64,000 bases of DNA. It comes from Syntrophales bacterium. GTDB lineage: Bacteria > Desulfobacterota > Syntrophia > Syntrophales > PHBD01. A program made the translations under genes and the position numbers. The stretch spans positions 3,744,001-3,808,000 of the forward strand of contig OY764159.1 in NCBI GenBank assembly GCA_963668175.1, in the 5' to 3' direction. This document shows positions 24,041 to 54,118 of the stretch, piece after piece (position 1 is the first letter of the stretch; the number at the start of each line of letters is the position of its first letter). The notes below the pieces were generated by a model that made no database searches, was not told the origin of the DNA, and saw only the letters and a program-made list of their open reading frames with translations.

Positions 24041-24264
24041 CTTATAGTTTGTATCCATGACACATCATTACCAGTAAGACCGTCAGGGTTTCTGAAAAAC
24101 GCCTTATATTGACCTTTTTATGTACACTCGGGCGTAAGTGCACACATGTGAACAGCGAAGCCTCGCTGGAAAAAAGTCAAGTGTTGGTGTTTACAGCTAT
24201 TCCCATCTCTTAGGCTCACTTCCTTAAGGCTTTGCGGATCATTATAAAAAAGGGAGGTATGAGT

Positions 24265-25632: not shown

Positions 25633-25714
25633 AGCTGCTAACATCGGAAACAAGGCTGCAGCTGCGCATCCTCGGGCGGCGCCTTCGATTAACTCAGGAG
25701 AAAGGAGTGTCAAG

Positions 25715-26563: not shown

Positions 26564-26652
26564 TCGATCTACGGACGCCATCCTGTCCGGGCTTGTTTGC
26601 CGGCGGGGATAGGCACTGAAGATTCACACTTACGCAAGGAGGCATGTACATT

Positions 26653-27795: not shown

Positions 27796-27852
27796 ATCAT
27801 GTTTTCGGGAAGCTATTGATGGTGCGGTGATACTCCTGCGATACTTTTCCAA

Positions 27853-27879
27853 ACTTCCCCTGCTTGCGGCAGGGGAAGT
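27853..27879. repeat. Intergenic GC-rich palindrome (REP-like or mRNA-stabilising hairpin)
   Basis: ACTTCCCCTGC-TTGCG-GCAGGGGAAGT. Confidence 0.5.
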
Positions 27880-27960
27880 GCGGGAAAGGATTTTCAGCAC
27901 AGTCGGGCGATTCACCCGCAAAAAACATACGACAAGGACAATCTTAAAGGAGCCGGTAAT

Positions 27961-29211: not shown

Positions 29212-29252
29212 CAGTGAACCTCCTTTTGTTCCCTCCTTTCAAGGAGGTTTCC

Positions 29253-29288
29253 GGCAGCCCCTCTTAGCGGAAAGAGGGGCTGCCCTTT
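29253..29288. terminator. Hairpin terminator between the convergent thiolase and activator genes
   Basis: GGCAGCCCCTCTT...AAGAGGGGCTGCC, 13-bp stem. Confidence 0.7.
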
Positions 29289-30717
29289 AGAGGATATCAT
29301 GCTTCCCGTTGGTCAGCCCGTATTTCCGCTTTTTACGCGTCAGGGTGGATATATCGATCTGCAGACGCTGTGCCGCATCCTCCAGGTTGGCCGACGAATC
29401 CAATGTTTGACGGATGAATTCCCTCTCAAAGGCCTCGACATTTTGCCTGAGGGGTCCTTCCAGACGCGGGGGGTGCCGGTGATGGACGTTAATAAAGTAG
29501 TTGACTTTGCTGAATTTTTTTATATCAGCCGGCAGATCGTGAAGCATGACCATGTCATCCGTACTTGTCACAACGATCCTTTCGATGGTATTGCGCACCT
29601 CCCGCACGTTTCCCGGCCAGTCATAATTCATCAGGGCGTTTAAGGCGTCAATCGAAAGAAACTTGTTCGTATTGTAATTCTGGTTGTAGATCTTTAGGAA
29701 ATGCTTGATCATGGGCAGGATATCCTCTTTCCTCTCTTTCAGAGGCGAAATGTGCATGGGAATCACATTGAGCCGGTAGTAGAGATCCTGTCTGAATTTC
29801 CGGTGCTTGACCATCTGTTCGAGATCCATATTCGTCGCGGCGATGATACGGACGTCGATCGGAATAGTTGCCAGGCTTCCCAGCCGCTTGATCATCCGGT
29901 CCTGAAGGACGTTGAGAAGCTTAGCCTGGAGTTCATAGGGGAACTCTCCGATCTCGTCGAGAAACAGCGTACCACCGTTGGCCAGCTCGAATGTTCCCTG
30001 TTTGCCGCCGGCTCTGGCATCAGTAAAGGCGCCGGTTTCGTAGCCGAATAATTCCGATTCGAGCAGATTCGCCGGCAGGGACGCGCAATCAACCTTGACG
30101 AAGGCGCCGACGCCCTGTCTCCGGCTCTGAAAATGGATGAACTGTGCGAGAACGTCTTTGCCGACGCCGGAAAGGCCCGTAATGAGCACCGTGGCATCGG
30201 AGCGGGCCACTTTTTTGGCCAGGGATAAAATCCGGCGGAATTCCGTGCTTTGCCCCACGAAAAATTTGTTGCTGCCGCCAAGCTGTTCCTCCAGGTAATC
30301 GATCCGCTGTTTGAATTTTTCGATCATCACCTGGGAATTCTTGAGCTGCCCGTTGATCCGGTTCAGTTCCGTGATATCCTTCAAGGTGCTGACGACTGCG
30401 GCCGGCCGGCCGTCGTCCCGCCAGAGCATGGCCGCGGTGACCAGAAGCTGCTTGCCGCTCGGATACTGAATAAGGCGGCTCCGGCTCTGGTGATCTTTCA
30501 GAACCTCCAGATTCACCGCTGTCGGCACCCAGTTGTTTTCAATCATATAGGTGGTGTGCCGGCCGATCATCTCTTCCCGGTTGATGCCGGAAATGTCTTC
30601 GAAGGCCTGATTGGCCATGATGTAATACCCTTCCGCATCCGCGATGAACATGCCGTCCTGCACGGACTCGATGAGAGCCCGGGCGATGCTGAGCGTTTTC
30701 GGAGAAAATCCGGCCAT
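29287..30717 (-). CDS. PAS-domain sigma54-dependent Fis-family activator
   Basis: PAS; GLSGVGKD; ESELFG..GAFTDA; FLDEIGE; WPGNVRE; C-terminal HTH. Confidence 0.93.
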   Translation of the reverse strand: MAGFSPKTLSIARALIESVQDGMFIADAEGYYIMANQAFEDISGINREEMIGRHTTYMIENNWVPTAVNLEVLKDHQSRSRLIQYPSGKQLLVTAAMLWRDDGRPAAVVSTLKDITELNRINGQLKNSQVMIEKFKQRIDYLEEQLGGSNKFFVGQSTEFRRILSLAKKVARSDATVLITGLSGVGKDVLAQFIHFQSRRQGVGAFVKVDCASLPANLLESELFGYETGAFTDARAGGKQGTFELANGGTLFLDEIGEFPYELQAKLLNVLQDRMIKRLGSLATIPIDVRIIAATNMDLEQMVKHRKFRQDLYYRLNVIPMHISPLKERKEDILPMIKHFLKIYNQNYNTNKFLSIDALNALMNYDWPGNVREVRNTIERIVVTSTDDMVMLHDLPADIKKFSKVNYFINVHHRHPPRLEGPLRQNVEAFEREFIRQTLDSSANLEDAAQRLQIDISTLTRKKRKYGLTNGKHDIL

Positions 30718-41388: not shown

Positions 41389-41901
41389 ATGGAATGGATA
41401 CGGGTATTCATTCATGGATTGGAAAGCACAAGCCGGGGAGCCAAGGGGCAGTACTTTCGAGCCCGATACCCGGACATGATGATCGGCGACTATGAAGGTC
41501 CCCTGGAAAACCGCATGGCGAAACTCGGGCGCGAGCTTGACGGAAAGAAAAATCTGATTCTGGTCGGTTCCAGCTTCGGGGGGCTGATGGCGGCCATCCA
41601 TACCTGCCAGTATCCGGAAAGCGTCCAGCGCCTGATCCTGTTGGCTCCGGCCCTGAGTTTGCCCGATTTCAAACCGTACGCCGCGCGCACGGTGAAGACA
41701 CCGGTGATCGTTTTTCACGGCCGCGGCGACGATGTCGTGCCCTTTCCCCCTGTCCGGACGATCGCCCGGAAAGTCTTTACAAACTTGGAATATCACCTCG
41801 TGGACGACGACCATTCCCTCCATGAAACCTTTCCGGACATGCCTTGGAATGAGCTCCTTCTCTTTCCCGACACAAAGAAACCTCAGGCGCATAAAGGCTG
41901 A
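41389..41901 (+). CDS. YqiA-like alpha/beta hydrolase
   Basis: FIHGLES, GSSFGG, LLAPA, HG..DDVV, DDHSL; GGAGGAG RBS. Confidence 0.85.
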   Translation: MEWIRVFIHGLESTSRGAKGQYFRARYPDMMIGDYEGPLENRMAKLGRELDGKKNLILVGSSFGGLMAAIHTCQYPESVQRLILLAPALSLPDFKPYAARTVKTPVIVFHGRGDDVVPFPPVRTIARKVFTNLEYHLVDDDHSLHETFPDMPWNELLLFPDTKKPQAHKG

Positions 41902-41927
41902 CAGGTGGACACTCCCTTATTTTAAGA

Positions 41928-41956
41928 TTGACTTTCGAATCATTTCGACTTAAAAT
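41928..41956 (+). promoter_or_regulatory. Sigma70-type promoter for the phaEC operon
   Basis: TTGACT-N17-TAAAAT. Confidence 0.55.
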
Positions 41957-42184
41957 TCAATCAGATTCTTGTGATTTAACATGCGGTGCGCGCAGCGGTT
42001 CCTTTTCGTCAGGACCTGTCTGCGGCTTCCCCACATCTTTCATCGTTAGGCGTCCCACGGGACGCATGCGGACATTCGGGATAACAAGGCCCGGCAAATG
42101 AACGTATCCGCTCAGCCCGAAGAAGACATTCACCGCCGGACAGCGATGAACACCATTTTTCTTTCACCCGTCAAGAGGTCGATC

Positions 42185-43087
42185 ATGAGTGATGAAACCC
42201 GGAAAGAAACACCCCTGGAATCGATGTTTTCCGAATGGACGAAGTCTCCGGCCAATTTCATGAATTTCTTTGCCCAGCTATCGAAACAGTCCGTACCGTC
42301 CGGCACATCTGCCGGACAGACATCGAGAAGCCGAACCGCCGAATCGTGGGAATCGATGATGAAAATGTGGCAACTCACGACATCTACGCTCAGCGACCCT
42401 GATTCAGCCGAACTCTTTCTCAAAGGTGCGGGCGCCCTCCCCGATATCGTCATGAAGGTCGCCCAGGCCGGATGGGATGCAAGCATTGAGATGCAGAGGA
42501 GAATCATCGAAAAGGCGGGCAAGATCGGCCAGAGGACGGAGGCTTACAACTTCGACCAGATCGACGAGGGCCTGTTCAAGGCCTGGAAAGAAATCTACGA
42601 GCAGGAGCTGAGCCAGTTCCTGAAGATACCCAACCTGGGCCTGGCACGGTATTACCAGGACCGTCTCTACCATCTTCTCGATAGGTATAACGTCTTTGAG
42701 GCGACTTTTTCCGAATTTCTCTATGTCGTCTATCAGCCGATCGAAAAATCGAAAAAAGTCCTGGAAGAGAGGCTGCAGCAGATGGCCGCGGAGGGAAAGA
42801 TTCCCGAGAAATCGAAGGAACTCTACAACATGTTCATCAAGATCCTGGAAGGCCATTACATGACCTTGTTCCAATCGCCGGAATATGAAAAGGTCCTGCG
42901 GGACATGCTCAGTCAGTTGAATGCCTTCTGGCTCGCGAAGGACGAAGTCATGCGCGACATGCTGCAGATCCTTCCCGTCCCGACCCACAAGGACATGGAT
43001 GAGCTTTACAAGGACATCTATCTTCTGAAAAAGAGGGTGAGATCTCTCGAAGATGAGTTGAAAAACGCCAAAGCAAAACAGGCTTAA
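42185..43087 (+). CDS. phaE: Class III PHA synthase subunit PhaE
   Basis: IPNLGLARYYQ, LY..FI...E..Y..LF.S.EY, LPVPT..DMDELYK.IY.LKK; directly upstream of phaC. Confidence 0.85.
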   Translation: MSDETRKETPLESMFSEWTKSPANFMNFFAQLSKQSVPSGTSAGQTSRSRTAESWESMMKMWQLTTSTLSDPDSAELFLKGAGALPDIVMKVAQAGWDASIEMQRRIIEKAGKIGQRTEAYNFDQIDEGLFKAWKEIYEQELSQFLKIPNLGLARYYQDRLYHLLDRYNVFEATFSEFLYVVYQPIEKSKKVLEERLQQMAAEGKIPEKSKELYNMFIKILEGHYMTLFQSPEYEKVLRDMLSQLNAFWLAKDEVMRDMLQILPVPTHKDMDELYKDIYLLKKRVRSLEDELKNAKAKQA

Positions 43088-43105
43088 AGCCGAAGGAGAC
43101 GAGCG

Positions 43106-44377
43106 ATGGCCCAGACGAAAATTCCACTCGATTTGATTTTGAACAATCTGGCCGAAGAGGCGGAAAAGGCCAAGGACAGGGTGAGCAAGGCGTCGGATGT
43201 TCTCCTCAGTCCCTTGAATACGGCCATTGCGTCCACACCGTACGATATCGTATGGGAGCAGGACAGGGTCAAGCTGAAACACTACCACACCCACGGCGAC
43301 ATCACCCTGAAGACTCCCTTGCTGGTCGTCTACGCCCTGATTAACCGGGAAACCATGCTTGACCTCCAGCCGGACAGGAGCGTCGTTCAGACTTTCCTCA
43401 ACAACGGCATCGATCTTTACATGATCGACTGGGGTTTTCCCACCCGCAAGGACCGCTACCTCACCATCGACGACCACGTCAACGGCTATATGAACGACGT
43501 CGTGGATTTCATCCTCGCCAGGCATCAGATTCCCCAGGTCAACCTCATGGGAATATGCATGGGGGGATCGTTCTGCGTCATGTACTCGGCACTCCATCCG
43601 GAAAAGATCAAGAACCTCATCACGACGGTTACGCCGAGCAGCTTCGACACGGACAAGGGGCTCCTGCATACATGGATGCGGGCCATCGACGTCGACAGAC
43701 TCATCGACGCCTACGGCAATCTGCCGGGGGACATCATGAACATGGGTTTTCTGCTTCTCAACCCGGCTCGCCTCATGATCGACAAATACGTCGGTTTTAT
43801 GGAACAGATGGACAACCAGGTATTTGTGGAAAACTTCATTCGCATGGAGAAATGGATATTCGACAGCCCCGACGTGCCGGGAGAGACTTTCCGGCAGTTC
43901 ATCAAAGACTGCTATCATAACAACCTCCTGATTCAGAGCAAAATGAAAATCGGGGGCAAACTCATCGACCTCAAAAAGATCACGATGCCGATGCTGAACT
44001 TCTACGGTCAGTACGACCACCTCGTTCCCCCGGAGGCCTGCAACCAGATCACCAGCCGGGTGGGCAGCAAGGACACGGAGGATATCTGCCTGGACACCGG
44101 CCATATCGGCATCTATGTCAGTTCCAAGACCCAGAGGGAATTCGCCCCCAAGATCGTTTCCTGGCTCAAAGAGCGGGACGGCAAGCCTGCGGCGGAGGAG
44201 GCGCCGAAGCGCAAAGCGGCGAGAAAGAAGCCCCTCCGGCCGCAGATGGTAGCCGTGGAAGCCGGCCGGGGTAAAGCGGTATCCGGCAACGCATCGTCCC
44301 GGCCTTTGGAACCGCCCGACGGGGCTCCGGATAAGTCACACTTACGCAGGGCCTCATCCAGGCCGGCAGTAGGTTAA
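43106..44377 (+). CDS. phaC: Class III PHA synthase subunit PhaC
   Basis: PLLVVYALIN, DLQPDRS, lipase-like box GICMGG, F.RME.WIFD.PD..GE, catalytic DHLVP and GHIG. Confidence 0.95.
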   Translation: MAQTKIPLDLILNNLAEEAEKAKDRVSKASDVLLSPLNTAIASTPYDIVWEQDRVKLKHYHTHGDITLKTPLLVVYALINRETMLDLQPDRSVVQTFLNNGIDLYMIDWGFPTRKDRYLTIDDHVNGYMNDVVDFILARHQIPQVNLMGICMGGSFCVMYSALHPEKIKNLITTVTPSSFDTDKGLLHTWMRAIDVDRLIDAYGNLPGDIMNMGFLLLNPARLMIDKYVGFMEQMDNQVFVENFIRMEKWIFDSPDVPGETFRQFIKDCYHNNLLIQSKMKIGGKLIDLKKITMPMLNFYGQYDHLVPPEACNQITSRVGSKDTEDICLDTGHIGIYVSSKTQREFAPKIVSWLKERDGKPAAEEAPKRKAARKKPLRPQMVAVEAGRGKAVSGNASSRPLEPPDGAPDKSHLRRASSRPAVG

Positions 44378-44407
44378 TACGTTTAAAATCCTGAGAGAGG
44401 TCCATCC

Positions 44408-45454
44408 ATGACGATAGAGAACGACTATTTCAGAGCAATATGCAAGGTGAGCAGGGCTTTCGGGACAACGTCCAGCAAGAAGGAAATTCTTGACCTGATC
44501 GTGGGGAGCGCCATCGATACCATGCAGGTCAAGGCGGCAAGCCTTTTTCTGCTTGACGCCGACAAGGACATTTTTTTAACGGCGGCCCAGAAAGGACTTT
44601 CCAAGAACTATCTCCACTCTCAACCTTTCAAGGCCAGAAAAATGGTGGACGATCTTGTGAAAAAGGGATATCTGGCCATTCCCGACGCCATGAAAGACCC
44701 CCGCGTAGAGAATCCGCAATCAAAGAAGAAGGAAGGTATCGTTTCGATTCTCGTCGTTCCGGTCCTGGTCAGAGGGAAGGCAATCGGCGTCCTGTCCCTC
44801 TATACGGCAAGCCCCAGGAAATTCGGCAAAGATGAGATCGAATTCCTGTCGGCCCTTGCAGAACAGGGCGGCATGGCAGTGGAACATGCCCGCCTGCTGG
44901 AGAAAATCAGGGAAAACATCAAGATTTTTCTCGATCTGTCGTCCAATATCAATTCAACCCTGGATCTGAAGACGATCCTCCAGGGCCTGACGAAAGACGT
45001 GGCCGTCGCTCTCGGCGTCAAGGCCGCCTCCATACGCCTGTTGAACGATAAAAAGACAACCCTTCAGTTGGCGGCCAGTTACGGACTCAGCGATAAATAC
45101 ATCAACAAGGGACCCATTTCCGCCGAAAAAAGCATCGCCGAAGCCCTTACAGGCAAGCCGGTCGTCGTCAATAACGCATCCACGGACAAGGGCGTCCAAT
45201 ACAAGAAAGAGAAGAAAGAGGAGGGCATTGTGTCCATCCTCTGCGTCCCCATCAAGGTCAAGGACGAAGTGATCGGAGTACTCAGGCTCTACAGCGCCGT
45301 CGCCAGGGAGTTCGCCGAAGATGAAATTATCCTCGTTACGGCCATAGCCAACCATGGCGGCCTCGCCATTCAGAACGCCGGCCAGTACCTCCTTCTGCAG
45401 AATGACGTCAAAGACCTCAAGGACGATACCTGGTCTCACAGGAGTTGGTTTTAA
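44408..45454 (+). CDS. Tandem GAF-GAF protein with no output domain
   Basis: Two internal repeats (VKAAS.., EGIVSIL.VP...IGVL.LY....R.F...EI). Confidence 0.85.
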   Translation: MTIENDYFRAICKVSRAFGTTSSKKEILDLIVGSAIDTMQVKAASLFLLDADKDIFLTAAQKGLSKNYLHSQPFKARKMVDDLVKKGYLAIPDAMKDPRVENPQSKKKEGIVSILVVPVLVRGKAIGVLSLYTASPRKFGKDEIEFLSALAEQGGMAVEHARLLEKIRENIKIFLDLSSNINSTLDLKTILQGLTKDVAVALGVKAASIRLLNDKKTTLQLAASYGLSDKYINKGPISAEKSIAEALTGKPVVVNNASTDKGVQYKKEKKEEGIVSILCVPIKVKDEVIGVLRLYSAVAREFAEDEIILVTAIANHGGLAIQNAGQYLLLQNDVKDLKDDTWSHRSWF

Positions 45455-45564
45455 CGGCCTAGACCCGCATCACGTCAGGAAAGGCAAACGGCAAGGAACA
45501 GGGGGAGGGATCGTTTGGATCCGCACGCAACAGAAACCGTGATCAGCGAATTCAAGGGGGATTC

Positions 45565-45993
45565 ATGATAGGAAAGACCATCACGCAAATCAGTGTCGGT
45601 TCGGCAGCCGAATTGGTCAAAACGGTATCGGAGACGGACATCTATCTGTATGCGGGCATTACCGGCGATTTTAACCCCGCCCATTTGAACGAGGTCTACG
45701 CCAAGACGACTTTTTTCAAAACAAGGATCGCCCACGGCATGCTGACGGCGGGATTCATTTCCGCCATTCTGGGTACCCAACTGCCGGGACCGGGAACGAT
45801 CTACCTGAAGCAGGAGCTGAATTTCCTGGCGCCCGTTTTGATCGGAGATACGATTACCGCCCGGGTGGAGGCGGTGGAAGTCATTGCGGAAAAGAATCGT
45901 GTCCGCTTCAAGACGACCTGCAGCAATCAGGACGGGAAAATCGTGCTGGACGGCGAAGCCCTGGTGATGCCGCCGAAAGCACCAAAGTCATGA
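45565..45993 (+). CDS. phaJ: MaoC-family (R)-specific enoyl-CoA hydratase
   Basis: YAGITGDFNPAH, IAHGML, LPGPGTIY..Q.L.F.APV; pha gene context. Confidence 0.85.
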   Translation: MIGKTITQISVGSAAELVKTVSETDIYLYAGITGDFNPAHLNEVYAKTTFFKTRIAHGMLTAGFISAILGTQLPGPGTIYLKQELNFLAPVLIGDTITARVEAVEVIAEKNRVRFKTTCSNQDGKIVLDGEALVMPPKAPKS

Positions 45994-46012
45994 CGGGAGC
46001 GGTTGTTCGTTT

Positions 46013-46044
46013 AAAGGGGCATGGTGACCATGCCCCTTTTTTTT
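46013..46044. terminator. Bidirectional intrinsic terminator
   Basis: AAAGGGGCATGG-TGA-CCATGCCCCTTTTTTTT between convergent operons. Confidence 0.8.
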
Positions 46045-46535
46045 CAAGCCTTCTTCTTGCCGAACGAGGAGAGATTGTTCATGAGTTTCTGGAATTCATT
46101 GGCCTGTTGCTCCAGAAGCTCTCGAAAACCTTCGGCGATGTTGTTATGTTCACCGCTTCCCGTTCCCATCAATTTCCGCAATTGTGCGATGGTCTCTTCC
46201 TGTTCGCTTAATTTCCCTTCGAGGTCGGCAACCTTCTTTTCCAGATCCAGATAATCGGCCTTGGGGACCATATCGAACATGGCCAGATACTCGCGAAACG
46301 ATTTCCGGAACATCTCGACAGACTGTTTGTAGATCCCCATGTAGTCCGCTGCGTCTTCTTCGCCTTCTTTCGGGACATCGGGTCGATATGGATTTTTGTA
46401 AAGCGGCGCCATCTGCTCAAAGCCCTTGAGCCCCTGGGTCATCCACTGGCCGAAATCCTCCATCTGCTGCTGGGTTTTGGCTGCATTCAGAAACAACTGT
46501 CCCCATATTTCGAAGAAGTTCTTATCCATGTTCAT
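46044..46535 (-). CDS. Hypothetical helical/coiled-coil protein, last gene of the phasin-like operon
   Basis: 13-bp gap from the upstream paralog; VPKADYLDLEKKVADLEGKLSEQEETI coiled coil. Confidence 0.75.
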   Translation of the reverse strand: MNMDKNFFEIWGQLFLNAAKTQQQMEDFGQWMTQGLKGFEQMAPLYKNPYRPDVPKEGEEDAADYMGIYKQSVEMFRKSFREYLAMFDMVPKADYLDLEKKVADLEGKLSEQEETIAQLRKLMGTGSGEHNNIAEGFRELLEQQANEFQKLMNNLSSFGKKKA

Positions 46536-46548
46536 GGCTTATAATTTT

Positions 46549-46827
46549 CTACTTGGATTTACCCTTTTCGATTCCGGCGAAGAGGGCGTCAACTTTCTTA
46601 TAGCTTTCGTCGACCGATTTTTTGAAGTCTTCGCGGCCTTTCTTGAAGGCCCGGCTCCAATCCCTTATAACCTTCCTACCATCTTCAGGCAGCCAGGGAG
46701 ACTGATCGATGAACATATTGATCATTCGTTCGGTCTGTTCCTGGAGAGCAGCCATGGCATTGAAAGAATTATCGAAGGCTGTCTTATTGAATTCAATCAT
46801 CTGCTTGGTCACCTGCTTAGGATCCAT
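46549..46827 (-). CDS. Putative phasin-like protein 4
   Basis: Shares QMI.F.K..F...F, Q.E.M...F..Q.PW.P.EG....W...Y..GR..FK...D..Y.K with three neighbours; GGAGG RBS. Confidence 0.75.
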   Translation of the reverse strand: MDPKQVTKQMIEFNKTAFDNSFNAMAALQEQTERMINMFIDQSPWLPEDGRKVIRDWSRAFKKGREDFKKSVDESYKKVDALFAGIEKGKSK

Positions 46828-46867
46828 TGTGTTCCTCCTTCAATGATGGGTTATCACAAACAAAAAT

Positions 46868-47152
46868 CTATTGCTGTCCCGCCTCTTTCTTCTCTTCCTG
46901 CAAGTAGTAATCGTCAATTTTCCTGAAGTTTTCGTCAATGGCGGCCTTGAAATCGCTGCGGCTTTTCCTGTAGGCCTTGATCCATTCGCCCACGATCTTC
47001 TTTCCTTCCTCAGGAAACCAGGGCGTATGCTCGAAAAACATACCGATCATCTTTTCCCGTTGCTCCAGAATCACAGTTACAGCGTTGAAGGCGTTTTCAA
47101 AAACGGATCTGTTGAAAGCGATCATCTGCTTCAGGATGTCATTGGGGTCCAT
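46868..47152 (-). CDS. Putative phasin-like protein 3
   Basis: MDPNDILKQMIAFNRSVFENAF...PWFPEEGKK. Confidence 0.75.
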   Translation of the reverse strand: MDPNDILKQMIAFNRSVFENAFNAVTVILEQREKMIGMFFEHTPWFPEEGKKIVGEWIKAYRKSRSDFKAAIDENFRKIDDYYLQEEKKEAGQQ

Positions 47153-47212
47153 CTCCCTGCCCTCCTTCCAAATGCTGTCCCGACGCAACCTCATTCTTTC
47201 CGGAGGCCTTCC

Positions 47213-47470
47213 CTATCCGGCAAAAAAATCCTCCACTTTCCTATAATGGGCATCAACGGCCGCTTTGAAGTCGTTGCGCCCTTTCTGATAGGCCCTGATC
47301 CATTCACCGACGACATTTTTCCCTTCTTGCGGAAACCACGGCGACTGCTCCAGAAACATGTGCATGACCCGTTCCGCCTGGTCCTGCAAAGCGGTCATGG
47401 CCTCGAATGTATTGTCGAACGCCTTCTTGTTGTACGCAATCACCTGCTTGGTCATCTCCTTGGGATACAT
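47213..47470 (-). CDS. Putative phasin-like protein 2
   Basis: MYPKEMTKQVIAYNKKAFDNTF...PWFPQEGKN; AAGGAGG RBS. Confidence 0.75.
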   Translation of the reverse strand: MYPKEMTKQVIAYNKKAFDNTFEAMTALQDQAERVMHMFLEQSPWFPQEGKNVVGEWIRAYQKGRNDFKAAVDAHYRKVEDFFAG

Positions 47471-47554
47471 GTCGTAAACCTCCTTGGTTGGGCATCTTCG
47501 GTCTCACGGATTTGTCCGGAGTTCGCAGACGAATCGCCGTTCGACCTTCGCATC

Positions 47555-47848
47555 CTATTTTCCGCCGCCCGCCGGCTTGTCTTCACTCTTGTAAATCTTG
47601 AAGTAGGATTCCACCTTCTTGTAGCTTTCATCGATTGTACTCTTGAATTCATCGCGTCCGGTCTTGTAAGTCGCAAGCCATTCTTCGACCGCCGCCTTCC
47701 CCTCTTCCGGCAACCAAGCAGCCTGGCCCAGCAACACCCTCACCATCTTCTCGGTCTGCTCCTGCAGAATCATCATCGCATTGAAACTGCTGTCGAACGT
47801 CGTTTTGTAAAAACCTATCATCTGCCTTACGATTTTTCCCTGATCCAT
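47555..47848 (-). CDS. Putative phasin-like protein 1
   Basis: MDQGKIVRQMIGFYKTTFDSSF...AWLPEEGKA; GGAGG RBS. Confidence 0.75.
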   Translation of the reverse strand: MDQGKIVRQMIGFYKTTFDSSFNAMMILQEQTEKMVRVLLGQAAWLPEEGKAAVEEWLATYKTGRDEFKSTIDESYKKVESYFKIYKSEDKPAGGGK

Positions 47849-47901
47849 CGCACGCCTCCATTTCATTATTTGATACGATATTGCTGACGTTATGTCGGAG
47901 A

Positions 47902-47930
47902 AATATAATATCAGGCGTTTCCCATGTCAA
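47902..47930 (-). promoter_or_regulatory. Sigma70-type promoter for the phasin-like operon
   Basis: Minus strand TTGACA-N17-TATATT. Confidence 0.65.
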
Positions 47931-47939
47931 GGAAAATGT

Positions 47940-47951
47940 TGCATCGCAGCA
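47940..47951. promoter_or_regulatory. Candidate PhaR operator
   Basis: TGCATCGCAGCA (TGC-N3-GCA core) about 10 bp from the -35 box, between the phasin-like genes and phaR. Confidence 0.6.
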
Positions 47952-48107
47952 ATATCCGTTCTATCCGGATCCTGTCTTTGATTTGTCTTCCATAGGTACT
48001 TCTTTGCAATTACTGATTATTTTACAATCATTAAAAATACCGCAATCAACGCTTGATTTATTTTTTGCATTGTGCCATTAATCTTCGCGCATCAGGAGAT
48101 GGGGATT

Positions 48108-48629
48108 ATGGCTGAACCGCTGCTTATCAAGAAATACGAAAACAGACGGCTGTACGATACGGAAAAGAGTACTTATATCCGGCTTGACGATATCGCCGGC
48201 TTCATCAAGCAGGGTCGTATCGTGAAGGTCGTGGACGCTAAGACCAACGCGGACGTCACGGCCTTCATCCTGACACAGATCGTCCTCGAACAATCGAAAG
48301 AAAACAGCCTTCTGCCCGTCTCCATGCTCCATATGATCATCCAGTACGGGGATAATGTCTTGAACGATTTTTTTGAAAACTACCTGCAACAAATACTGAA
48401 CAACTATCTCTCGTACCGGGCCATGGCCGATGACAGCTTCAGACAGTGGCTGGACCTGGGTATGGATTTCTCCCAGGCCGCTCAGGAAACCATCCACAAG
48501 ATGACACCCCTCAGGCGGTTTATGGATATGTTTCCGGACAAGCCGCCCGCGCCCTCGTCATCCGCTCCGCAGGATGAAGCCCCGGACAGGCAAAAGGCAA
48601 AAAGTCGCGGGAAGAAAATGGAGAAGTAA
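48108..48629 (+). CDS. phaR: PHA synthesis regulator PhaR
   Basis: IKKYENRRLYDTEKSTYI.L..I, VVDAKT..DVT..IL.QI; AGGAG RBS. Confidence 0.92.
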   Translation: MAEPLLIKKYENRRLYDTEKSTYIRLDDIAGFIKQGRIVKVVDAKTNADVTAFILTQIVLEQSKENSLLPVSMLHMIIQYGDNVLNDFFENYLQQILNNYLSYRAMADDSFRQWLDLGMDFSQAAQETIHKMTPLRRFMDMFPDKPPAPSSSAPQDEAPDRQKAKSRGKKMEK

Positions 48630-49134: not shown

Positions 49135-49740
49135 ATGGCGCAGAAAAAATCAACGGAAAAGACAGATGACGGTTTCAAAATCGGCGATAAACTCAAGACT
49201 TTAAGGGAGAAGAAGAAGCTGACCATCCATGACCTCGCGGCCAAGTCCGGAGTGGTAAAGACTGTCCTGGCCGATATCGAAGAGAACAAGATCATCCCCC
49301 CCGTGGCTACCCTTTTGACCATCGCCTCCGCGTTGGACGTCGGTATGGCTGACTTCTTCAGCGACGATCTCACCGACGAGACGATCTCTCTGACCAGGGC
49401 CGGCGAAAGGACCAAGATCAAACGGAGGCCACACCACATCCTCGAAGGCGAAGTCAGCTACATTTACGAGTCCCTGGAAACAAAGAAACCCAAGAAACAC
49501 ATGGAACCCCTCTTCGTGGAATTCCTCCCGGCTGAAACGAGCGACATGGTCTTCACCAGCCACAGGGGCGAAGAGTTTGTCTTCCTCGTGGAAGGCAGTC
49601 TGGAATTCAGAACCGACGACCGCGTCGAGGTTCTGAAACCCGGCGACAGTCTCTACTTTGAATCACACATCAACCACAGTTTTCGGGGTTTAAAAAACAA
49701 ATCGGCCAAGGCGATCGTCGTCGTCTGGAGCAGACTGTAA
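49135..49740 (+). CDS. XRE-family regulator with a cupin domain
   Basis: HTH N-terminus; H.GEEFVFL.EG, L.PGDSLYF.S...H. Confidence 0.9.
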   Translation: MAQKKSTEKTDDGFKIGDKLKTLREKKKLTIHDLAAKSGVVKTVLADIEENKIIPPVATLLTIASALDVGMADFFSDDLTDETISLTRAGERTKIKRRPHHILEGEVSYIYESLETKKPKKHMEPLFVEFLPAETSDMVFTSHRGEEFVFLVEGSLEFRTDDRVEVLKPGDSLYFESHINHSFRGLKNKSAKAIVVVWSRL

Positions 49741-49752
49741 TCTGGAGGTATT

Positions 49753-50331
49753 ATGCTGGAGATACGCTTTCACGGACGCGGCGGCCAGGGGACGGTCGTA
49801 TTGTCCATCCTGCTCGCCAAGGCCTTTTTTCAGGCAGGATTTCAGGTCCAGAGTTTCCCCTTTTTCGGCGTCGAGCGCAGGGGAGCCCCGGTCGAAGCCT
49901 ACCTGCGCCTGGACCAGAAAAAGATTCTTGCCAGAACCAATGTAACGACGCCGGACCACGTCGTCGTTCAGGACCAGACATTGCTTAACAGTATCGATCT
50001 TACAAAGGGCTTGCGTCCCGGCGGCTGGGTGTTGCTCAACGGCACAGCCCAATCGGTCGACGTAGACCGTTTTCCTCACCAAAGGATAGCTGTCGTCGAC
50101 GCCGGCAAGATCGCCCTGAAGCACGAACTGGGGAGCCGCACGCATCCCATCGTCAATACGGCCATGATGGGCGCATTCGCCCGCATGATGGAAATGCCGC
50201 CGATGGACGCCATCGTCGCGGCCATCCGTGAGGAAGTGCCCGCCGAACCGGACAGGAATATCGCCGCGGCTGAAGAGGCCTATCGCGAAGTCCAGTTCAT
50301 CAGAAATATCATCAGCGAGGATCGAAAATGA
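49753..50331 (+). CDS. porC: 2-oxoacid:acceptor oxidoreductase gamma subunit
   Basis: EIRFHGRGGQG, FG.ERRGAPV, IVNTAM.GA. Confidence 0.92.
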   Translation: MLEIRFHGRGGQGTVVLSILLAKAFFQAGFQVQSFPFFGVERRGAPVEAYLRLDQKKILARTNVTTPDHVVVQDQTLLNSIDLTKGLRPGGWVLLNGTAQSVDVDRFPHQRIAVVDAGKIALKHELGSRTHPIVNTAMMGAFARMMEMPPMDAIVAAIREEVPAEPDRNIAAAEEAYREVQFIRNIISEDRK

Positions 50332-52076
50332 ACACAGCGACCCAAGATACCAAAGCTTTATACATGCCTCGTTCCCACGAAACGACGGAAAGCAACAAGA
50401 CCGGATCATGGCGCTACCTCCGCCCCCGGTATGAGGAAAAGACATCTCCGTGCAGCAACGCCTGCCCGGCGGGGGAAGATATCGCCAGGATCGAGATGCT
50501 TACCACCCAGGCATCGTTCAAGGAAGCATGGGAAACCATTCTCATGGAGAATCCGTTTCCCGGGGTGTGCGGATGTGTCTGCTTTCATCCCTGCGAGAAT
50601 AACTGCAACCGGCAGCATTTCGACTCCGCCATCGCGATCAATAAAATAGAACGTTTCCTCGCCGATACCGCTCTTCGCAACGAACTCAAGCCCTTCCTGA
50701 CAAAACGCTCCGGCCAGCCCGAGAAGATCGCCGTCATCGGCGCCGGTCCCGCGGGCCTTTCCGCCGCCTGGTTTCTCAACATGCTGGGATACGCCTGCGA
50801 TGTCTTCGAATCCCAGGACGAACCGGGAGGCATCCTGCGGTGGGGCATTCCCGAATATCGCCTGCCGCTGGCCGTTCTGAAAACCGAAATCTCCAGGATC
50901 GAGGACCAGGGGATTAATATCCTCACCGGACAGAAGGTGTCGGAAAAGCGCCTGGAGGAGATTCGCAAGCAATACAAGGCCGTCTTCCTCGGTTGCGGTT
51001 ATTCCCTGAGCACGCCCCTCGGGATTTCCGGGGAGACGGAAGAAACCGTTCTGGACGGTCTGGCCTTTCTCCATAAAGTCAGAAACGGCGAGAAACCATC
51101 ATGTGATGGCGTCTCGGCCGTCATCGGCGGCGGCAACACCGCCATCGATGTGGCCCGTACGATCGTAAGGCTGGGAGGAAAGGCCGTAATCCTCTACCGG
51201 CGGAGAAGAGCGGACATGCCCGCCTTCGAGGACGAAGTGATCATGGCCCTGGACGAGGGCGTGGAATTGAACGAGCTGCTGGCTCCCGCCGGTATCGACA
51301 CACAAGGCGGTAAGAAGCTTCTGACCATGAAGAGAATGAAGGTCGAAGGCCAGGACAAAGACGGGCGGGGGCGGATCGTTCCCGCCGGCGACCAAACCGT
51401 CACGGTCACCGTCGACAGGGTCTTCACGGCGACGGGCGCCGGTGCGGACGAAACCTGGTACAATCCTCCCACGGCTGAGAAGGGCGTCAAGCCGTTCAGT
51501 CACTGTACGCTCGTAACCCGCGACGGAGCCCCGTTCCTTTACGGAGGCGATCTGACCAACGGCATCAAAAACGTCACGCAGGCCATTGCCTCGGGAAAAC
51601 AGGCGGCCATGATCCTGGATACATACTTCCGGGAAGGCATGGACCGCATCGTCCCCAGGCTCGAAGAATGCACGGTGGGCAGCGGCCCGTCCCTATCCAT
51701 GGAAATCTACATGGGCGGCCCCCGCAGCAAGCGCAGCCCCCACGTTGTCCAGTACAGCGAGATCAATACCGATTATTTTCAATTCGAACCCCGGATCTCC
51801 CAACCGCGTCTGCTGGCGGAGGAACGGGTAAAGACCTTTGCCGAGATCGATCTGAAGATATCGGCAAACCTGGCCATTCGCGAGGCGGAACGGTGTTTCA
51901 ACTGCGGCGTCTGCAACCAGTGCGACAATTGTTACCTCTTTTGCCCCGATGTCGCCGCACTCAGGGAAAGCAACAAGGAAAACCGCCATATCGACTACGA
52001 TTATTGCAAAGGCTGCGGCCTCTGTGCGGCGGAATGCCCCCGCAACGCAATGACGCTTGGAGAGGAGGGGATATAA
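50328..52076 (+). CDS. GltD/NfnB-like FAD-FeS protein fused to a PorD-type 2x[4Fe-4S] domain
   Basis: TGSWR..RP, PC..ACPAG, C.HPCE..CNR, GAGPAG, GGGNTA.D, YRR; C-terminal CNQCDNC...CP and CKGCGLC...CP. Confidence 0.88.
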   Translation: MNTATQDTKALYMPRSHETTESNKTGSWRYLRPRYEEKTSPCSNACPAGEDIARIEMLTTQASFKEAWETILMENPFPGVCGCVCFHPCENNCNRQHFDSAIAINKIERFLADTALRNELKPFLTKRSGQPEKIAVIGAGPAGLSAAWFLNMLGYACDVFESQDEPGGILRWGIPEYRLPLAVLKTEISRIEDQGINILTGQKVSEKRLEEIRKQYKAVFLGCGYSLSTPLGISGETEETVLDGLAFLHKVRNGEKPSCDGVSAVIGGGNTAIDVARTIVRLGGKAVILYRRRRADMPAFEDEVIMALDEGVELNELLAPAGIDTQGGKKLLTMKRMKVEGQDKDGRGRIVPAGDQTVTVTVDRVFTATGAGADETWYNPPTAEKGVKPFSHCTLVTRDGAPFLYGGDLTNGIKNVTQAIASGKQAAMILDTYFREGMDRIVPRLEECTVGSGPSLSMEIYMGGPRSKRSPHVVQYSEINTDYFQFEPRISQPRLLAEERVKTFAEIDLKISANLAIREAERCFNCGVCNQCDNCYLFCPDVAALRESNKENRHIDYDYCKGCGLCAAECPRNAMTLGEEGI

Positions 52077-52077
52077 T

Positions 52078-53247
52078 ATGAAACGGGTACTTGAAGGAAG
52101 CCAGTCCGTCGCCGAAGCCGTGCGGATGGCCAAGGTTCAGGTCGTATCGGCCTATCCGATCACGCCGCAGACGCACATCGTGGAGATCATCTCCGATTAC
52201 TGCGCTACCGGCAAGATGGACGCGCGGTTCCTGCGCGTAGAGAGCGAGCACTCCTGCCTGGCCGCCCTGATCGGCGCCGAAAGCATGGGCGTGCGCACCT
52301 TTACGGCGACATCCTCCCAGGGTCTGGCTCTGATGCACGAGCTCCTGCACTGGGCATCCGGCGCCCGCCTTCCTATTGTCATGGCCGAGGTCAACCGGGC
52401 CCTCGCCCCCGGCTGGAACATCTGGACGGACCAGAGCGACAGCCTATCCCAGCGCGATACGGGATGGCTCCAATTCTACTGCGAAGACGGCCAGGAAGTC
52501 TACGACACGACGCTCCAGTCTTTCCGCCTGGCCGAGACGATCAACCTTCCGGTCATGGTGGTACTGGATGCCTTTCTCCTTTCCCACACGTACGAACCGG
52601 TGGACGTCCCCGAACAGGAGGCCGTCGACCGCTTCCTGCCCCCGTATAAGCCGGAGTTTCGTCTGGATACGCGGGACCCCTTCGCCTTGAGCCCGCTGGT
52701 AACGCCGGTCAACTACATGGAGATGCGATACGATATCGCCACGGCCATGGACGAGGCGAGGGTGCGTTTCAACGATATCGAGAATGAATTTGCAGGCATC
52801 TTCGACCGCCGTTACGGACCGATCGAGGCCATTGCCTGCGACGATGCGGAGATTGTCCTCGTAACATCGGGAACCATGACCAGCACGGCCCGCCAGCTTC
52901 TCGAGGAACTGCGGGCCAAGGGCGAGCGGATCGGCGTCCTGAAGATCAAAATGTTCCGGCCGTTCCCCGTTGAGGAGGTCCGCAGGGCCTTAAAGAGTGC
53001 CCGGAAAGTGGCCGTGATCGACCGGAATTTCTCTTTCGGCGCGAGCGGCATCTTCGCCCAGGAAATCAGGGCCGCCCTTTGCAACGTACCCGGTCATCCG
53101 CCCGTATTCGGATACATCGCCGGGCTCGGAGGCCGGGATGTAACGACATCCGTGCTGTCGGATATCTACAACCGGACCAAAACCAGCAACGTCCCTGCAA
53201 CGGAAAGCATCTGGGTGGGGCTTCAGGAGGTGAAACGTGCAAATTGA
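52078..53247 (+). CDS. porA: 2-oxoacid:ferredoxin oxidoreductase alpha subunit
   Basis: AYPITPQT, VESEHS, TATSSQGL, FRPFP, GLGGRD. Confidence 0.93.
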   Translation: MKRVLEGSQSVAEAVRMAKVQVVSAYPITPQTHIVEIISDYCATGKMDARFLRVESEHSCLAALIGAESMGVRTFTATSSQGLALMHELLHWASGARLPIVMAEVNRALAPGWNIWTDQSDSLSQRDTGWLQFYCEDGQEVYDTTLQSFRLAETINLPVMVVLDAFLLSHTYEPVDVPEQEAVDRFLPPYKPEFRLDTRDPFALSPLVTPVNYMEMRYDIATAMDEARVRFNDIENEFAGIFDRRYGPIEAIACDDAEIVLVTSGTMTSTARQLLEELRAKGERIGVLKIKMFRPFPVEEVRRALKSARKVAVIDRNFSFGASGIFAQEIRAALCNVPGHPPVFGYIAGLGGRDVTTSVLSDIYNRTKTSNVPATESIWVGLQEVKRAN

Positions 53248-54118
53248 CGCTTTCGATCGTGAATATATGTGCTCGGGCCATGTCGGATGCCCGGGCTGCG
53301 GTGCAACCATCGCCATGCGCTTTGTGATGAAAGCCTTGGGCGAAAAAACGGTCATGGTCCTTCCCGCCTGCTGCTGGTCGGTTATTTCCGGGCCGTATCC
53401 CCAGTCGACCATGAAGATTCCGGTTCTCCACACGGCCTTTGAAACAGGCGGCGCGGCGGCCAGCGGCGTCCGGGCGGCCCTCGACATGAAGGGCGATACC
53501 GATACGACCGTCATCACCTGGGCCGGCGACGGCGGGACATTCGACATCGGCTTCCAGGCCTTAAGCGGGGCCGTCGAGCGGAACGAAGACTTCATCTATA
53601 TCTGCTACGACAACGAGGCTTACATGAACACGGGCATCCAGCGAAGCTCGTCCACGCCTTACGGAGCCTGGACGACGACGACGCCGGGACAGGATTGGAA
53701 GAAGATGCGGAAAAAGAACATCGTGGAATCCCTTGTCGCCCACCGCATCCCCTATGCGGCCACGGCCAATATCGCTTTTCCGGAAGATCTGGTCCGCAAG
53801 GCGAGGAAAGCCCGTGAAGTGAAAGGCTCCCGGTTCCTGCATATCTACGCAAGCTGCCCGACCGGCTGGAAGATTCCCTCCGAGTTGTCCGTAAAGATCG
53901 CCCGGATGGCCGTGCAAACCAATATTTTTCCCCTCTACGAAGTTGAAGACGGCGTCCGCTATACGATCAATTACCGGCCGAAGGAGTATCTCGTCCGGGA
54001 ATACTTCAAACTTCAGGGACGTTTCCGGCACCTGACCGACCAGGACCTCGACCATATCCAGCAGATGGTGGACGAAGACTGGGCGCTTCTCTTGAGAAAG
54101 GCGGGCGAACGTTTGTAA
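53237..54118 (+). CDS. porB: 2-oxoacid:ferredoxin oxidoreductase beta subunit (TPP-binding)
   Basis: GH..CPGCG, GDGG, DNEAYMNTG.Q, CPTGW. Confidence 0.93.
   Translation: MQIDAFDREYMCSGHVGCPGCGATIAMRFVMKALGEKTVMVLPACCWSVISGPYPQSTMKIPVLHTAFETGGAAASGVRAALDMKGDTDTTVITWAGDGGTFDIGFQALSGAVERNEDFIYICYDNEAYMNTGIQRSSSTPYGAWTTTTPGQDWKKMRKKNIVESLVAHRIPYAATANIAFPEDLVRKARKAREVKGSRFLHIYASCPTGWKIPSELSVKIARMAVQTNIFPLYEVEDGVRYTINYRPKEYLVREYFKLQGRFRHLTDQDLDHIQQMVDEDWALLLRKAGERL

What the first reader, a model, noticed from the sequence alone, without database searches (positions are those of the whole stretch)
41389..48629. Complete PHA (carbonosome) island in an anaerobic deltaproteobacterium, with unusual architecture and several unannotated parts
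Seen: phaE-phaC-GAF/GAF-phaJ on the plus strand, converging at one terminator with an operon of four small paralogs and a coiled-coil gene, which is divergent from phaR. Known: class III PhaEC occurs in sulfate reducers, PhaJ makes (R)-3-hydroxyacyl-CoA from enoyl-CoA, and PhaR represses phasins. Inferred: a phaB-independent route feeding beta-oxidation enoyl-CoA (see the 24-29 kb operon) into PHA as a carbon store, with six uncharacterised granule-associated or regulatory proteins.
Basis: partly seen in the sequence, partly recalled or inferred. Interest (0 to 1): 0.82.

Follow-up and report, generated by a model that had tools for sequence, protein, structure and literature searches.

The report
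Anaerobe PHA island with unnamed phasins
This is a gene cluster shared by many sulfate-reducing and syntrophic bacteria that likely makes granules of the storage polyester PHA: it pairs known enzymes with an unnamed family of likely granule-coat proteins behind a conserved repressor-type DNA site, and with a predicted sensor protein whose target is untested.

Summary
The island is real: phaE-phaC(class III)-GAF/GAF-phaJ face four small paralogs plus a coiled-coil gene, divergent from phaR. It is conserved rather than unusual: the GAF gene follows phaC in 76 of 80 related loci and in 15 of 15 orthologue-bearing genomes of a 300-genome phylum sample. The small genes are most likely a phasin family missing from Pfam: amphipathic hairpins, class III phaC in 21 of 25 carrier genomes, and the footprinted PhaR consensus just upstream of their -35 in 47 of 47 intergenic regions. 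The island is not complete. It has no recognised depolymerase, and a PhaC-fold Cys-Asp-His enzyme that lies inside the island in 46 of 80 relatives sits 0.7 Mb away here, still behind the same PhaR box. No canonical phaB was found, so PhaJ supply is likely, but PhaJ may also run backwards, a second synthase operon with its own reductase exists, and the 24-29 kb operon is 1 of 29 acyl-CoA dehydrogenase loci. The GAF protein's function is untested. The scan noted similar modules before in other genomes. Verdict: new variant of a known kind.

The parts
41389..41901 (+). Small serine alpha/beta hydrolase (170 aa); a lineage-limited neighbour, probably not part of the core island
   Evidence: PF12146/PF00561; best PHA depolymerase model 25 bits against cut-off 300; near phaC in 4 of 80 loci
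41928..41956 (+). Predicted sigma-70 promoter of the phaE operon; no PhaR box nearby
   Evidence: 10 of 12 consensus match; best PhaR-matrix score -8.8 in 41850-42200; TGCRNYGCA upstream of phaE in 2 of 79 regions, shuffle mean 1.1
42185..43087 (+). phaE, class III synthase subunit (300 aa)
   Evidence: PF09712 E 1e-22, above cut-off; TIGR01834 78 bits, under cut-off 155; with phaC in 79 of 80 loci
43106..44377 (+). phaC, class III PHA synthase (423 aa, with a variable basic tail)
   Evidence: TIGR01836 428 bits over cut-off 365; C151, D304, H333 invariant in 59 aligned relatives
44408..45454 (+). Stand-alone tandem GAF protein (348 aa) with a conserved aromatic C-terminal tail; predicted metabolite sensor acting on the synthase
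   Evidence: Two GAF domains; next to phaC in 76 of 80 loci and 15 of 15 orthologue-bearing genomes; W342, W347, F348 invariant in 59 sequences
45565..45993 (+). phaJ, MaoC-type (R)-enoyl-CoA hydratase (142 aa)
   Evidence: PF01575; D35 and H40 at the spacing of the Asp31/His36 dyad given in PMC4823750; in 41 of 80 loci
46013..46039 (+). Terminator hairpin between the converging operons
   Evidence: 12 bp plus a T run on the plus strand; z -4.3 on both strands
46044..46535 (-). Amphipathic coiled-coil protein (163 aa), weakly related to the PhaE C-terminus and PhaF/PhaI phasins; likely granule-associated
   Evidence: hhalign to PhaE C-terminus E 6e-4, probability 29%; 6 of 37 family members hit PF05597, best E 0.001; a distant relative is the subunit gene before a phaC and hits PF09712 above cut-off; hydrophobic moment above 1000 of 1000 shuffles
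46549..46827 (-). Small phasin-like paralog 4 (92 aa)
   Evidence: Two-helix hairpin model, pLDDT 92.8; moment 0.47, 0 of 1000 shuffles as high
46868..47152 (-). Small phasin-like paralog 3 (94 aa)
   Evidence: 43% identical to paralog 4; 4 of 1000 shuffles as amphipathic
47213..47470 (-). Small phasin-like paralog 2 (85 aa)
   Evidence: 56% identical to paralog 4; 0 of 1000 shuffles as amphipathic
47555..47848 (-). Small phasin-like paralog 1 (97 aa; start chosen by its ribosome-binding site)
   Evidence: 48% identical to paralog 4; 5 of 1000 shuffles as amphipathic; GGAGG before the ATG
47902..47930 (-). Predicted sigma-70 promoter of the small-gene operon
   Evidence: TTGACA-17-TATATT, 11 of 12, best in the region; TTGAC[AT] 9-12 nt from the PhaR box in 47 of 47 regions
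47936..47952 (.). Predicted PhaR operator (core TGCATCGCA at 47940-47948; with its flank it matches TGCRNYGCASMA exactly)
   Evidence: TGCRNYGCA in 47 of 47 phaR/small-gene intergenic regions, shuffle mean 0.8, max 5; consensus from footprinting in PMC6201568; third-best site in the genome for a matrix trained on 46 other genomes
48108..48629 (+). phaR, PHA-sensing repressor (173 aa)
   Evidence: PF07879 E 7e-26; TIGR01848 95 bits, cut-off 109; in 43 of 80 loci

Best explanation
The locus is a conserved class III PHA gene island in which PhaJ likely diverts enoyl-CoA from beta-oxidation to (R)-3-hydroxyacyl-CoA, PhaE-PhaC likely polymerises it, and PhaR is predicted to switch on the four small genes, which likely encode granule-coat phasins of an unnamed family. 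Shown: gene identities, catalytic residues, conserved gene order, the operator and its position next to the small-gene promoter, and no phaB above cut-off. Inferred steps: (1) the phaE-phaC-GAF-phaJ operon has no PhaR box and would be expressed independently of PhaR; (2) new polymer would pull PhaR off its box and induce the phasins, the coiled-coil protein, a fifth phasin copy elsewhere and a PhaC-fold Cys-Asp-His enzyme now 0.7 Mb away; (3) the coiled-coil protein would act as a PhaF/PhaI-like granule organiser or a short PhaE-like subunit; (4) the tandem GAF protein, having no output domain, would sense a small metabolite and tune the synthase through its aromatic tail, the weakest step (about 40%); (5) branching at enoyl-CoA needs no reductant and skips the NADH-forming step, so it would store carbon when electron disposal is limiting, and PhaJ could also run backwards when the store is used.
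For: Family hits and catalytic residues. In the 45 of 80 loci with at least 7 kb downstream: GAF 42, small genes 37, phaR 34, coiled-coil 33, phaJ 28. In 300 sampled genomes of the phylum: class III phaC in 30; small family in 25 (one marginal hit dropped), 21 of them with class III phaC, against 9 of the other 275; coiled-coil relatives at E below 1e-7 in 20, 17 with class III phaC. Distant small-gene and coiled-coil relatives flank phaEC of a second phaC clade in three fetched loci (L105-L107). PhaR box in 47 of 47 regions at fixed spacing from the -35. The three best matrix hits in 4.57 Mb lie before a scattered small paralog, the relocated enzyme and this operon, all with the same box/-35 geometry. 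The hairpin model ties for top among 48,161 chains with the solved phasin PhaP 5IP0 (Z 10.0, rmsd 2.8, 88 aligned). phaB over cut-off in 0 of 1 (own) and 1 of 34 pha-positive genomes. A pha-linked short-chain reductase is found in 6 of 10 genomes lacking phaJ and 2 of 24 with it, as expected of alternative monomer suppliers. Precedent: PHA in sulfate reducers and class III PhaEC in D. multivorans (cited in PMC6566015 and PMC8831227); synthase, dehydratase and PhaR more abundant in syntrophic S. wolfei (PMC4324140).
Against: [quoted passage not shown] Z 10 is within the range of unrelated helical hairpins, and Foldseek found nothing at E 0.001. The coiled-coil link to PhaE is weak (probability 29%). 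The island GAF gene is absent from 15 of 30 class III genomes, and weaker GAF relatives occur in 71 more genomes; the two I fetched are not near phaC. phaJ is in only 28 of 45 well-covered loci. The genome has two more close phaJ paralogs (69-72%) and a class I-like phaC operon with its own reductase, so PhaJ is not the only possible monomer source. In H. mediterranei the granule-bound PhaJ1 serves mobilisation, not synthesis (PMC4823750). The phaJ/reductase pattern rests on related genomes (3 of the 6 are one family). The 80 loci were chosen by likeness to this phaC. The window site's matrix score (20.2) is matched by the best sites of shuffled genomes (19.9-22.4), so it stands on position and conservation, not score alone.
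Confidence: 0.66

Rival explanations
1. Same granule system, but PhaJ mainly serves mobilisation: it dehydrates (R)-3-hydroxyacyl-CoA released from the granule into beta-oxidation, while monomers come from an (R)-specific short-chain reductase such as the one in the fabH-acp-phaC-fabG-fabD operon elsewhere in the genome.
For: H. mediterranei precedent (PMC4823750 abstract). The genome's PRK08217-family reductase passes its cut-off and is 52% identical to the reductase directly after phaC in another class III cluster. S. wolfei has an acetoacetyl-CoA reductase as well as hydratases. 2 of 24 phaJ genomes also carry the island reductase.
Against: phaJ lies in the synthase operon, not in the PhaR-induced operon. 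The island reductase has no orthologue in this genome (best 36-37%). phaJ and that reductase mostly exclude each other.
Confidence: 0.17
2. The PhaR-controlled operon is a second synthesis module: the PhaC-fold enzyme is a synthase of an unnamed class, the coiled-coil protein is its small subunit, and the small proteins coat its product; here the enzyme gene moved out but kept its PhaR box.
For: The predicted fold's best matches are full-length PhaC (Foldseek E 2e-12). Cys, Asp and His are invariant in 35 aligned members. All 12 sampled genomes with a close coiled-coil relative have the enzyme. G142 and G228 (99% complete) carry phaR, small genes, the enzyme, the coiled-coil gene, a reductase and a thiolase, with no class I or III phaC or phaE found. 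The enzyme coexists with a separate PhaZ-like gene in 17 of 18 loci that have one.
Against: PhaR also binds phaZ promoters in B. diazoefficiens. This genome has no TIGR01849 phaZ, leaving the depolymerase role open. An unfinished quick tree placed the enzyme beside PhaZ-like groups, on a very short branch. G142 and G228 are drafts in 40 and 240 contigs. Distant coiled-coil relatives sit before phaE without this enzyme. This rival is compatible with most of the best explanation.
Confidence: 0.1
3. The small proteins are not granule coats but some other helical-hairpin family (for example WXG100-like) that rides with the cluster, and the GAF gene is a passenger.
For: No phasin Pfam match; ESAT-6-like hairpins also appear among fold matches; five of the six scattered copies in this genome have no TGCRNYGCA box in 350 nt upstream.
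Against: PhaR box in 47 of 47 regions; 21 of 25 carriers have class III phaC against 9 of 275 non-carriers; linkage holds in two phaC clades; nearest Pfam-bearing clusters in the Atlas are Phasin_2, PHB_acc, PhaP_Bmeg and PhaE, though only at 0.79-0.80; GAF orthologues were never found away from phaC (15 of 15).
Confidence: 0.07

Closest known systems
Class III PhaEC of Desulfococcus multivorans and PHA in sulfate reducers (Hai et al. 2004; seen only as cited in PMC6566015 and PMC8831227)
   Same: Two-subunit class III synthase, phaE before phaC, in an anaerobic Desulfobacterota. Desulfonema magnum, a reported PHA accumulator, has a three-GAF relative of the GAF protein (P0339, 56%).
   Different: I found no description of the GAF gene, the small-gene family, the coiled-coil gene or PhaR control in these organisms in the searches run; the original paper could not be read, so it may mention neighbours.
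PhaR-phasin circuit (Cupriavidus necator, Paracoccus denitrificans, Bradyrhizobium diazoefficiens)
   Same: PhaR with PF07879; operator matching TGCRNYGCASMA close to the -35 of the phasin promoter; several phasin paralogs; synthase operon not under the box.
   Different: The target proteins are 85-97 aa and outside the four Pfam phasin families; they form a tandem operon with a coiled-coil gene and, in most relatives, a PhaC-fold enzyme.
Aeromonas caviae phaP-phaC-phaJ
   Same: phaJ clustered with the synthase and a phasin; monomers taken from beta-oxidation enoyl-CoA (PMC4823750 introduction).
   Different: Class I synthase in a facultative anaerobe; no PhaE, no GAF protein.
Haloferax mediterranei PhaJ1 / class III PhaEC
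   Same: Class III synthase and a granule-linked (R)-hydratase joined to beta-oxidation.
   Different: There PhaJ1 acts in mobilisation and contributes little to synthesis; archaeal phasin and regulator.
Syntrophomonas wolfei PHA cluster (Swol_1241-1244)
   Same: Synthase, acyl-CoA dehydratase and PhaR clustered in an anaerobic fatty-acid oxidiser and more abundant in coculture (PMC4324140).
   Different: A Bacillota syntroph that also has an acetoacetyl-CoA reductase; sequence relations to this island were not tested.

Membership tests
Class III PHA synthase (PhaEC) | PhaC above the TIGR01836 cut-off | tested here: met
   428 bits against 365
Class III PHA synthase (PhaEC) | Lipase-box Cys with Asp and His | tested here: met
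   C151, D304, H333; invariant in 59 relatives
Class III PHA synthase (PhaEC) | Adjacent phaE subunit gene | tested here: met
   PF09712 81 bits against 25.7; TIGR01834 is under its cut-off, 78 against 155
Class III PHA synthase (PhaEC) | Polymerises (R)-3-hydroxyacyl-CoA | not testable with these tools
   Needs an assay
PhaJ (R)-enoyl-CoA hydratase | Single MaoC domain with the Asp-x4-His dyad | tested here: met
   PF01575; D35/H40
PhaJ (R)-enoyl-CoA hydratase | Supplies monomers in vivo rather than removing them | tested here: inconclusive
   Operon position and near-exclusion with a pha-linked reductase favour supply; kin are not independent
PhaR repressor | PF07879 DNA-binding domain | tested here: met
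   E 7e-26
PhaR repressor | TIGR01848 equivalog cut-off | tested here: not met
   95 bits against 109, though the match spans model positions 2-99 of 107
PhaR repressor | Cognate operator at a target promoter | tested here: met
   47 of 47 regions; matches the footprinted consensus; binding itself not tested
Known phasin families (PF05597, PF09361, PF09602, PF09650) | Small proteins match a family model above cut-off | tested here: not met
   No window paralog hits; of 89 members only 2 hit PF09602 (best E 0.012) and 2 hit PF05597 (0.059)
Known phasin families (PF05597, PF09361, PF09602, PF09650) | Small, all-helical, amphipathic | tested here: met
   Model with two long helices; 0-5 of 1000 shuffles as amphipathic; criterion from PMC5658603
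Known phasin families (PF05597, PF09361, PF09602, PF09650) | Fold like the solved PhaP | tested here: inconclusive
   5IP0 Z 10.0, rmsd 2.8, 88 aligned, tied with unrelated hairpins
Known phasin families (PF05597, PF09361, PF09602, PF09650) | Binds the granule surface | not testable with these tools
   Needs granule proteomics or a binding assay
PhaF/PhaI-type phasin or PhaE/class IV PhaR-type subunit (coiled-coil gene) | Sequence relation to PF05597 or the PhaE C-terminus | tested here: inconclusive
   Weak hits only; a distant relative bridges to both
Canonical PhaA/PhaB route | phaB above the TIGR01829 cut-off in the genome | tested here: not met
   Best 243 bits against 302, a FabG-like gene
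Complete carbonosome locus | Intracellular depolymerase (TIGR01849) in the locus or genome | tested here: not met
   Only phaC itself scores, 22 bits; candidates outside the window are the PhaR-boxed enzyme and three DUF3141 proteins

The most novel reading that the evidence does not exclude
Desulfobacterota run a two-module PHA system: a class III synthase gated by a dedicated GAF-only sensor subunit, and a PhaR-induced operon of a fifth phasin family plus an unnamed PhaC-fold enzyme (mislabelled 'metal transporter') that with the coiled-coil protein forms a new synthase class or a CoA-conserving depolymerase. This would give energy-limited anaerobes a reversible, reductant-free carbon buffer at enoyl-CoA.
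Probability: 0.22. Interest if true: 0.78.

Novelty: new variant of a known kind. Interest (0 to 1): 0.52.

Why it matters
PHA storage in sulfate reducers and syntrophs is reported, but its granule proteins and control are barely described. This island names the likely players: a phasin family of about 900 clusters at 50% identity (888 at E below 1e-10) that databases mostly call hypothetical, a PhaR regulon defined by a near-invariant site, and two unannotated proteins tied to the synthase. No direct small-molecule sensor for a PHA synthase turned up in the papers searched, so the GAF protein would be of real interest if it binds PhaEC. Cultured carriers exist (Desulforhabdus sp. TSK has the full island, L056; Desulfonema magnum has the GAF relative), so the claims are testable.

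Tried and rejected
Complex prediction of the GAF protein with PhaC and part of PhaE gave no answer (score 0.01, mark 0.32); it is no evidence either way. An apparent PhaC-GAF fusion in L100 was rejected: another frame of the linker gives an ordinary Lys/Ala-rich PhaC tail ending in a stop, so a one-base indel explains it. No RNA holder was listed for the region, so expression is unchecked. Sequence search of solved structures found no natural relative of the small family or of the relocated enzyme; Foldseek gave no match at E 0.001 for the small protein. Profile comparisons of the small family with PhaE and with the coiled-coil family were not significant. Repeat search showed only the paralogous coding sequence and chance pairs. 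A PhaR box upstream of phaE was looked for and not found. The careful tree did not finish; only the quick tree was seen, and DUF3141 rows and one class IV-like row were not in it. The link to the 24-29 kb operon and the upstream esterase as a core part were rejected on co-occurrence. An eleventh weak match to the small family in this genome is the N-terminus of an HDOD protein and was not counted as a phasin. Hai et al. 2004 is not held.

Full report
Observation. The genes are as described. On the plus strand lie phaE, a class III phaC above the TIGR01836 cut-off with C151/D304/H333, a 348-aa protein of two GAF domains only, and a MaoC-type phaJ with the Asp-x4-His dyad. On the minus strand lie four paralogs of 85-97 aa and a 163-aa helical protein; phaR is divergent. 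A stable hairpin separates the converging operons, with a full T run only on the plus strand. The genome is one contig of 4.57 Mb, 100% complete, has dsrA, and its nearest phaC and small-protein relatives are named Syntrophaceae or Syntrophales.

Conservation. A scan with phaC confirmed 482 relatives and returned the best 80 loci. The GAF gene follows phaC in 76 of 80 (one miss ends at a contig edge). In the 45 loci with at least 7 kb downstream, GAF is in 42, small genes in 37 (1-5 copies), phaR in 34, the coiled-coil gene in 33 and phaJ in 28. Because these loci were chosen by likeness to this phaC, I also searched one sample of 300 other genomes of the phylum (tallied in 112). Class III phaC passes the cut-off in 30. 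The small family is in 26; I dropped one marginal hit (E 6e-4). Of the 25, 21 have class III phaC, one has class I phaC, one has a contig that ends inside the GAF gene, and two have none found. Of the other 275 genomes, 9 have class III phaC. Full-length GAF orthologues (50% identity or more) are in 15 genomes, and by their coordinates all 15 lie directly after phaC. Weaker GAF matches in 71 more genomes were not all examined; the two fetched are not near phaC and lack the aromatic tail. Related genomes are not independent, so these are counts, not tests.

The small genes. They match no Pfam or NCBIfam family above cut-off. The model is a two-helix hairpin (pLDDT 92.8), and all four are more amphipathic than at least 995 of 1000 shuffles. 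The solved phasin PhaP ties for first place in a wide fold search, but so do unrelated hairpins. The strongest evidence is regulatory. The core TGCRNYGCA occurs in 47 of 47 distinct phaR/small-gene intergenic regions (shuffle mean 0.8, max 5; spacings of 2 or 4 are not enriched), always 9-12 nt from a TTGAC[AT] that points at the small genes. It is the consensus footprinted for B. diazoefficiens PhaR next to the -35 of phaP genes (PMC6201568, passages); I recalled the motif first and then confirmed it there. A matrix trained on the 46 other regions ranks three sites first in this genome: before one scattered small paralog (25.9), before a PhaC-fold enzyme (25.9) and the window site (20.2); shuffled genomes reached 19.9-22.4 at best. 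All three share the box/-35 geometry. The genome has six further small-gene copies; five lack the box. I read the family as unnamed phasins (about 85%).

The missing gene. In 46 of 80 related loci a 530-aa gene lies with the small genes, mostly between them and the coiled-coil gene. It has invariant Cys, Asp and His, its predicted fold matches full-length PhaC best, and sources call it hypothetical or 'metal transporter'. Here it is at G000:C1:3076484-3078277, outside the island, behind its own PhaR box. It could be a depolymerase: this genome has no TIGR01849 phaZ, and PhaR binds phaZ promoters in B. diazoefficiens. It could be a synthase: G142 and G228 have it with phaR, small genes, a reductase and a thiolase but no other synthase found, and it coexists with a PhaZ-like gene in 17 of 18 loci that have one. 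I cannot choose between these. Five sampled genomes of one family in the same order lack both this enzyme and the coiled-coil gene yet keep phaC, GAF and small genes, so neither is universal.

The coiled-coil and GAF proteins. The coiled-coil family shows only weak links to the PhaE C-terminus and to PF05597. Distant relatives sit directly before phaE in a second phaC clade, and one is the only subunit gene before a phaC and hits PF09712 above cut-off. A PhaF/PhaI-like or short-subunit role is the likeliest. The GAF protein has no output domain, its last residues W342, W347 and F348 are invariant in 59 sequences, and three-GAF versions exist. Its nearest models include the GAF domains of PtsP and NifA; the PtsP domain binds glutamine or 2-oxoglutarate (PMC7204398, passages), while tandem PDE5 GAFs score as well among solved structures. 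The ligand and the partner are therefore open; control of the synthase by protein contact is an inference from gene position.

Monomer supply. No phaB reaches the cut-off here or in 33 of 34 pha-positive genomes. A conserved reductase lies in the island of some relatives; it is in 6 of 10 genomes without phaJ and 2 of 24 with it, and this genome lacks it. That favours PhaJ as supplier. Against exclusivity: two further phaJ paralogs, a fabH-acp-phaC-fabG-fabD operon, and the H. mediterranei case in which PhaJ1 mobilises PHA (PMC4823750, abstract and start of the introduction). The 24-29 kb operon encodes a CoA transferase, a 3-hydroxyacyl-CoA dehydrogenase, an acyl-CoA dehydrogenase and a thiolase, but it is 1 of 29 acyl-CoA dehydrogenase loci and does not travel with the island. 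The idea that diverting crotonyl-CoA to PHB avoids NADH build-up is already voiced as speculation for S. wolfei (PMC9676460, passage).

What is known. PHA in sulfate reducers and class III PhaEC in D. multivorans are published (Hai et al. 2004, not read; seen as cited in passages of PMC6566015 and PMC8831227). PhaJ supply, PhaR control of phasins and phasin heterogeneity are established (PMC4823750; passages of PMC5658603 and PMC7204398). Searches (listings, with the passages named above) showed no account of the GAF gene, the small family or the coiled-coil gene in Desulfobacterota; the library lacks most subscription journals and I read no supplements, where such genes may be listed. Earlier notes of this scan describe a like module in another Syntrophales genome, the PhaC-fold enzyme in a Desulfomonilia genome, and the FAS-like operon of this genome; they are unchecked AI notes, not support. 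The few lines shown of them do not mention the PhaR operator or the relocated boxed gene.

Verdict. A real, widely conserved PHA island: known enzymes and a known regulatory logic, with an unnamed phasin family, a defined PhaR regulon, and two proteins of open function. New variant of a known kind; interest 0.52.

Noticed in passing
   Followed up: partly
G000:C1:3076484-3078277 (L124): PhaC-fold Cys-Asp-His enzyme of the island family, relocated but behind a PhaR box with the same promoter geometry.
   Followed up: yes
G000:C1:4063579-4065459 (L007): A further 626-aa PhaC-like protein with a Cys lipase box; orthologues lie next to phaEC in L042, L113 and L114.
   Followed up: partly
L008:3825-6041, L009:4154-6322, L010:4264-6459: Three DUF3141 proteins in this genome; one lies about 2 kb from a gene above the cut-off for extracellular type 2 PHA depolymerase (L009:1338-2342).
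   Followed up: no
L013-L018 (G000): Six scattered copies of the small family; only the one at about G000:C1:3210800 has a PhaR box. A weak match also covers the N-terminus of an HDOD protein (L019:4010-5176).
   Followed up: partly
L101, L103, L129, L130: phaR followed by GNAT and thiolase genes, divergent from small genes-enzyme-coiled-coil-reductase; in G142 and G228 no known synthase was found.
   Followed up: partly
L023, L026, L028, L030, L031, L037, L052, L082, L084, L086, L092, L093 and others: A conserved short-chain reductase (about 75-82% identical among loci, PRK08217-like but under cut-off) in or beside the island; candidate PhaB substitute.
   Followed up: partly
L044, L046: Two phaE-phaC pairs in tandem, one of the GAF-linked type and one more distant.
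   Followed up: no
window 24232-30717: CoA transferase, 3-hydroxyacyl-CoA dehydrogenase, acyl-CoA dehydrogenase and thiolase genes facing a PAS sigma-54 activator; no enoyl-CoA hydratase among them.
   Followed up: partly
window 49135-54118: XRE-cupin regulator followed by a 2-oxoacid:ferredoxin oxidoreductase operon in which one gene joins a GltD-like flavoprotein with a 4Fe-4S domain.
   Followed up: no
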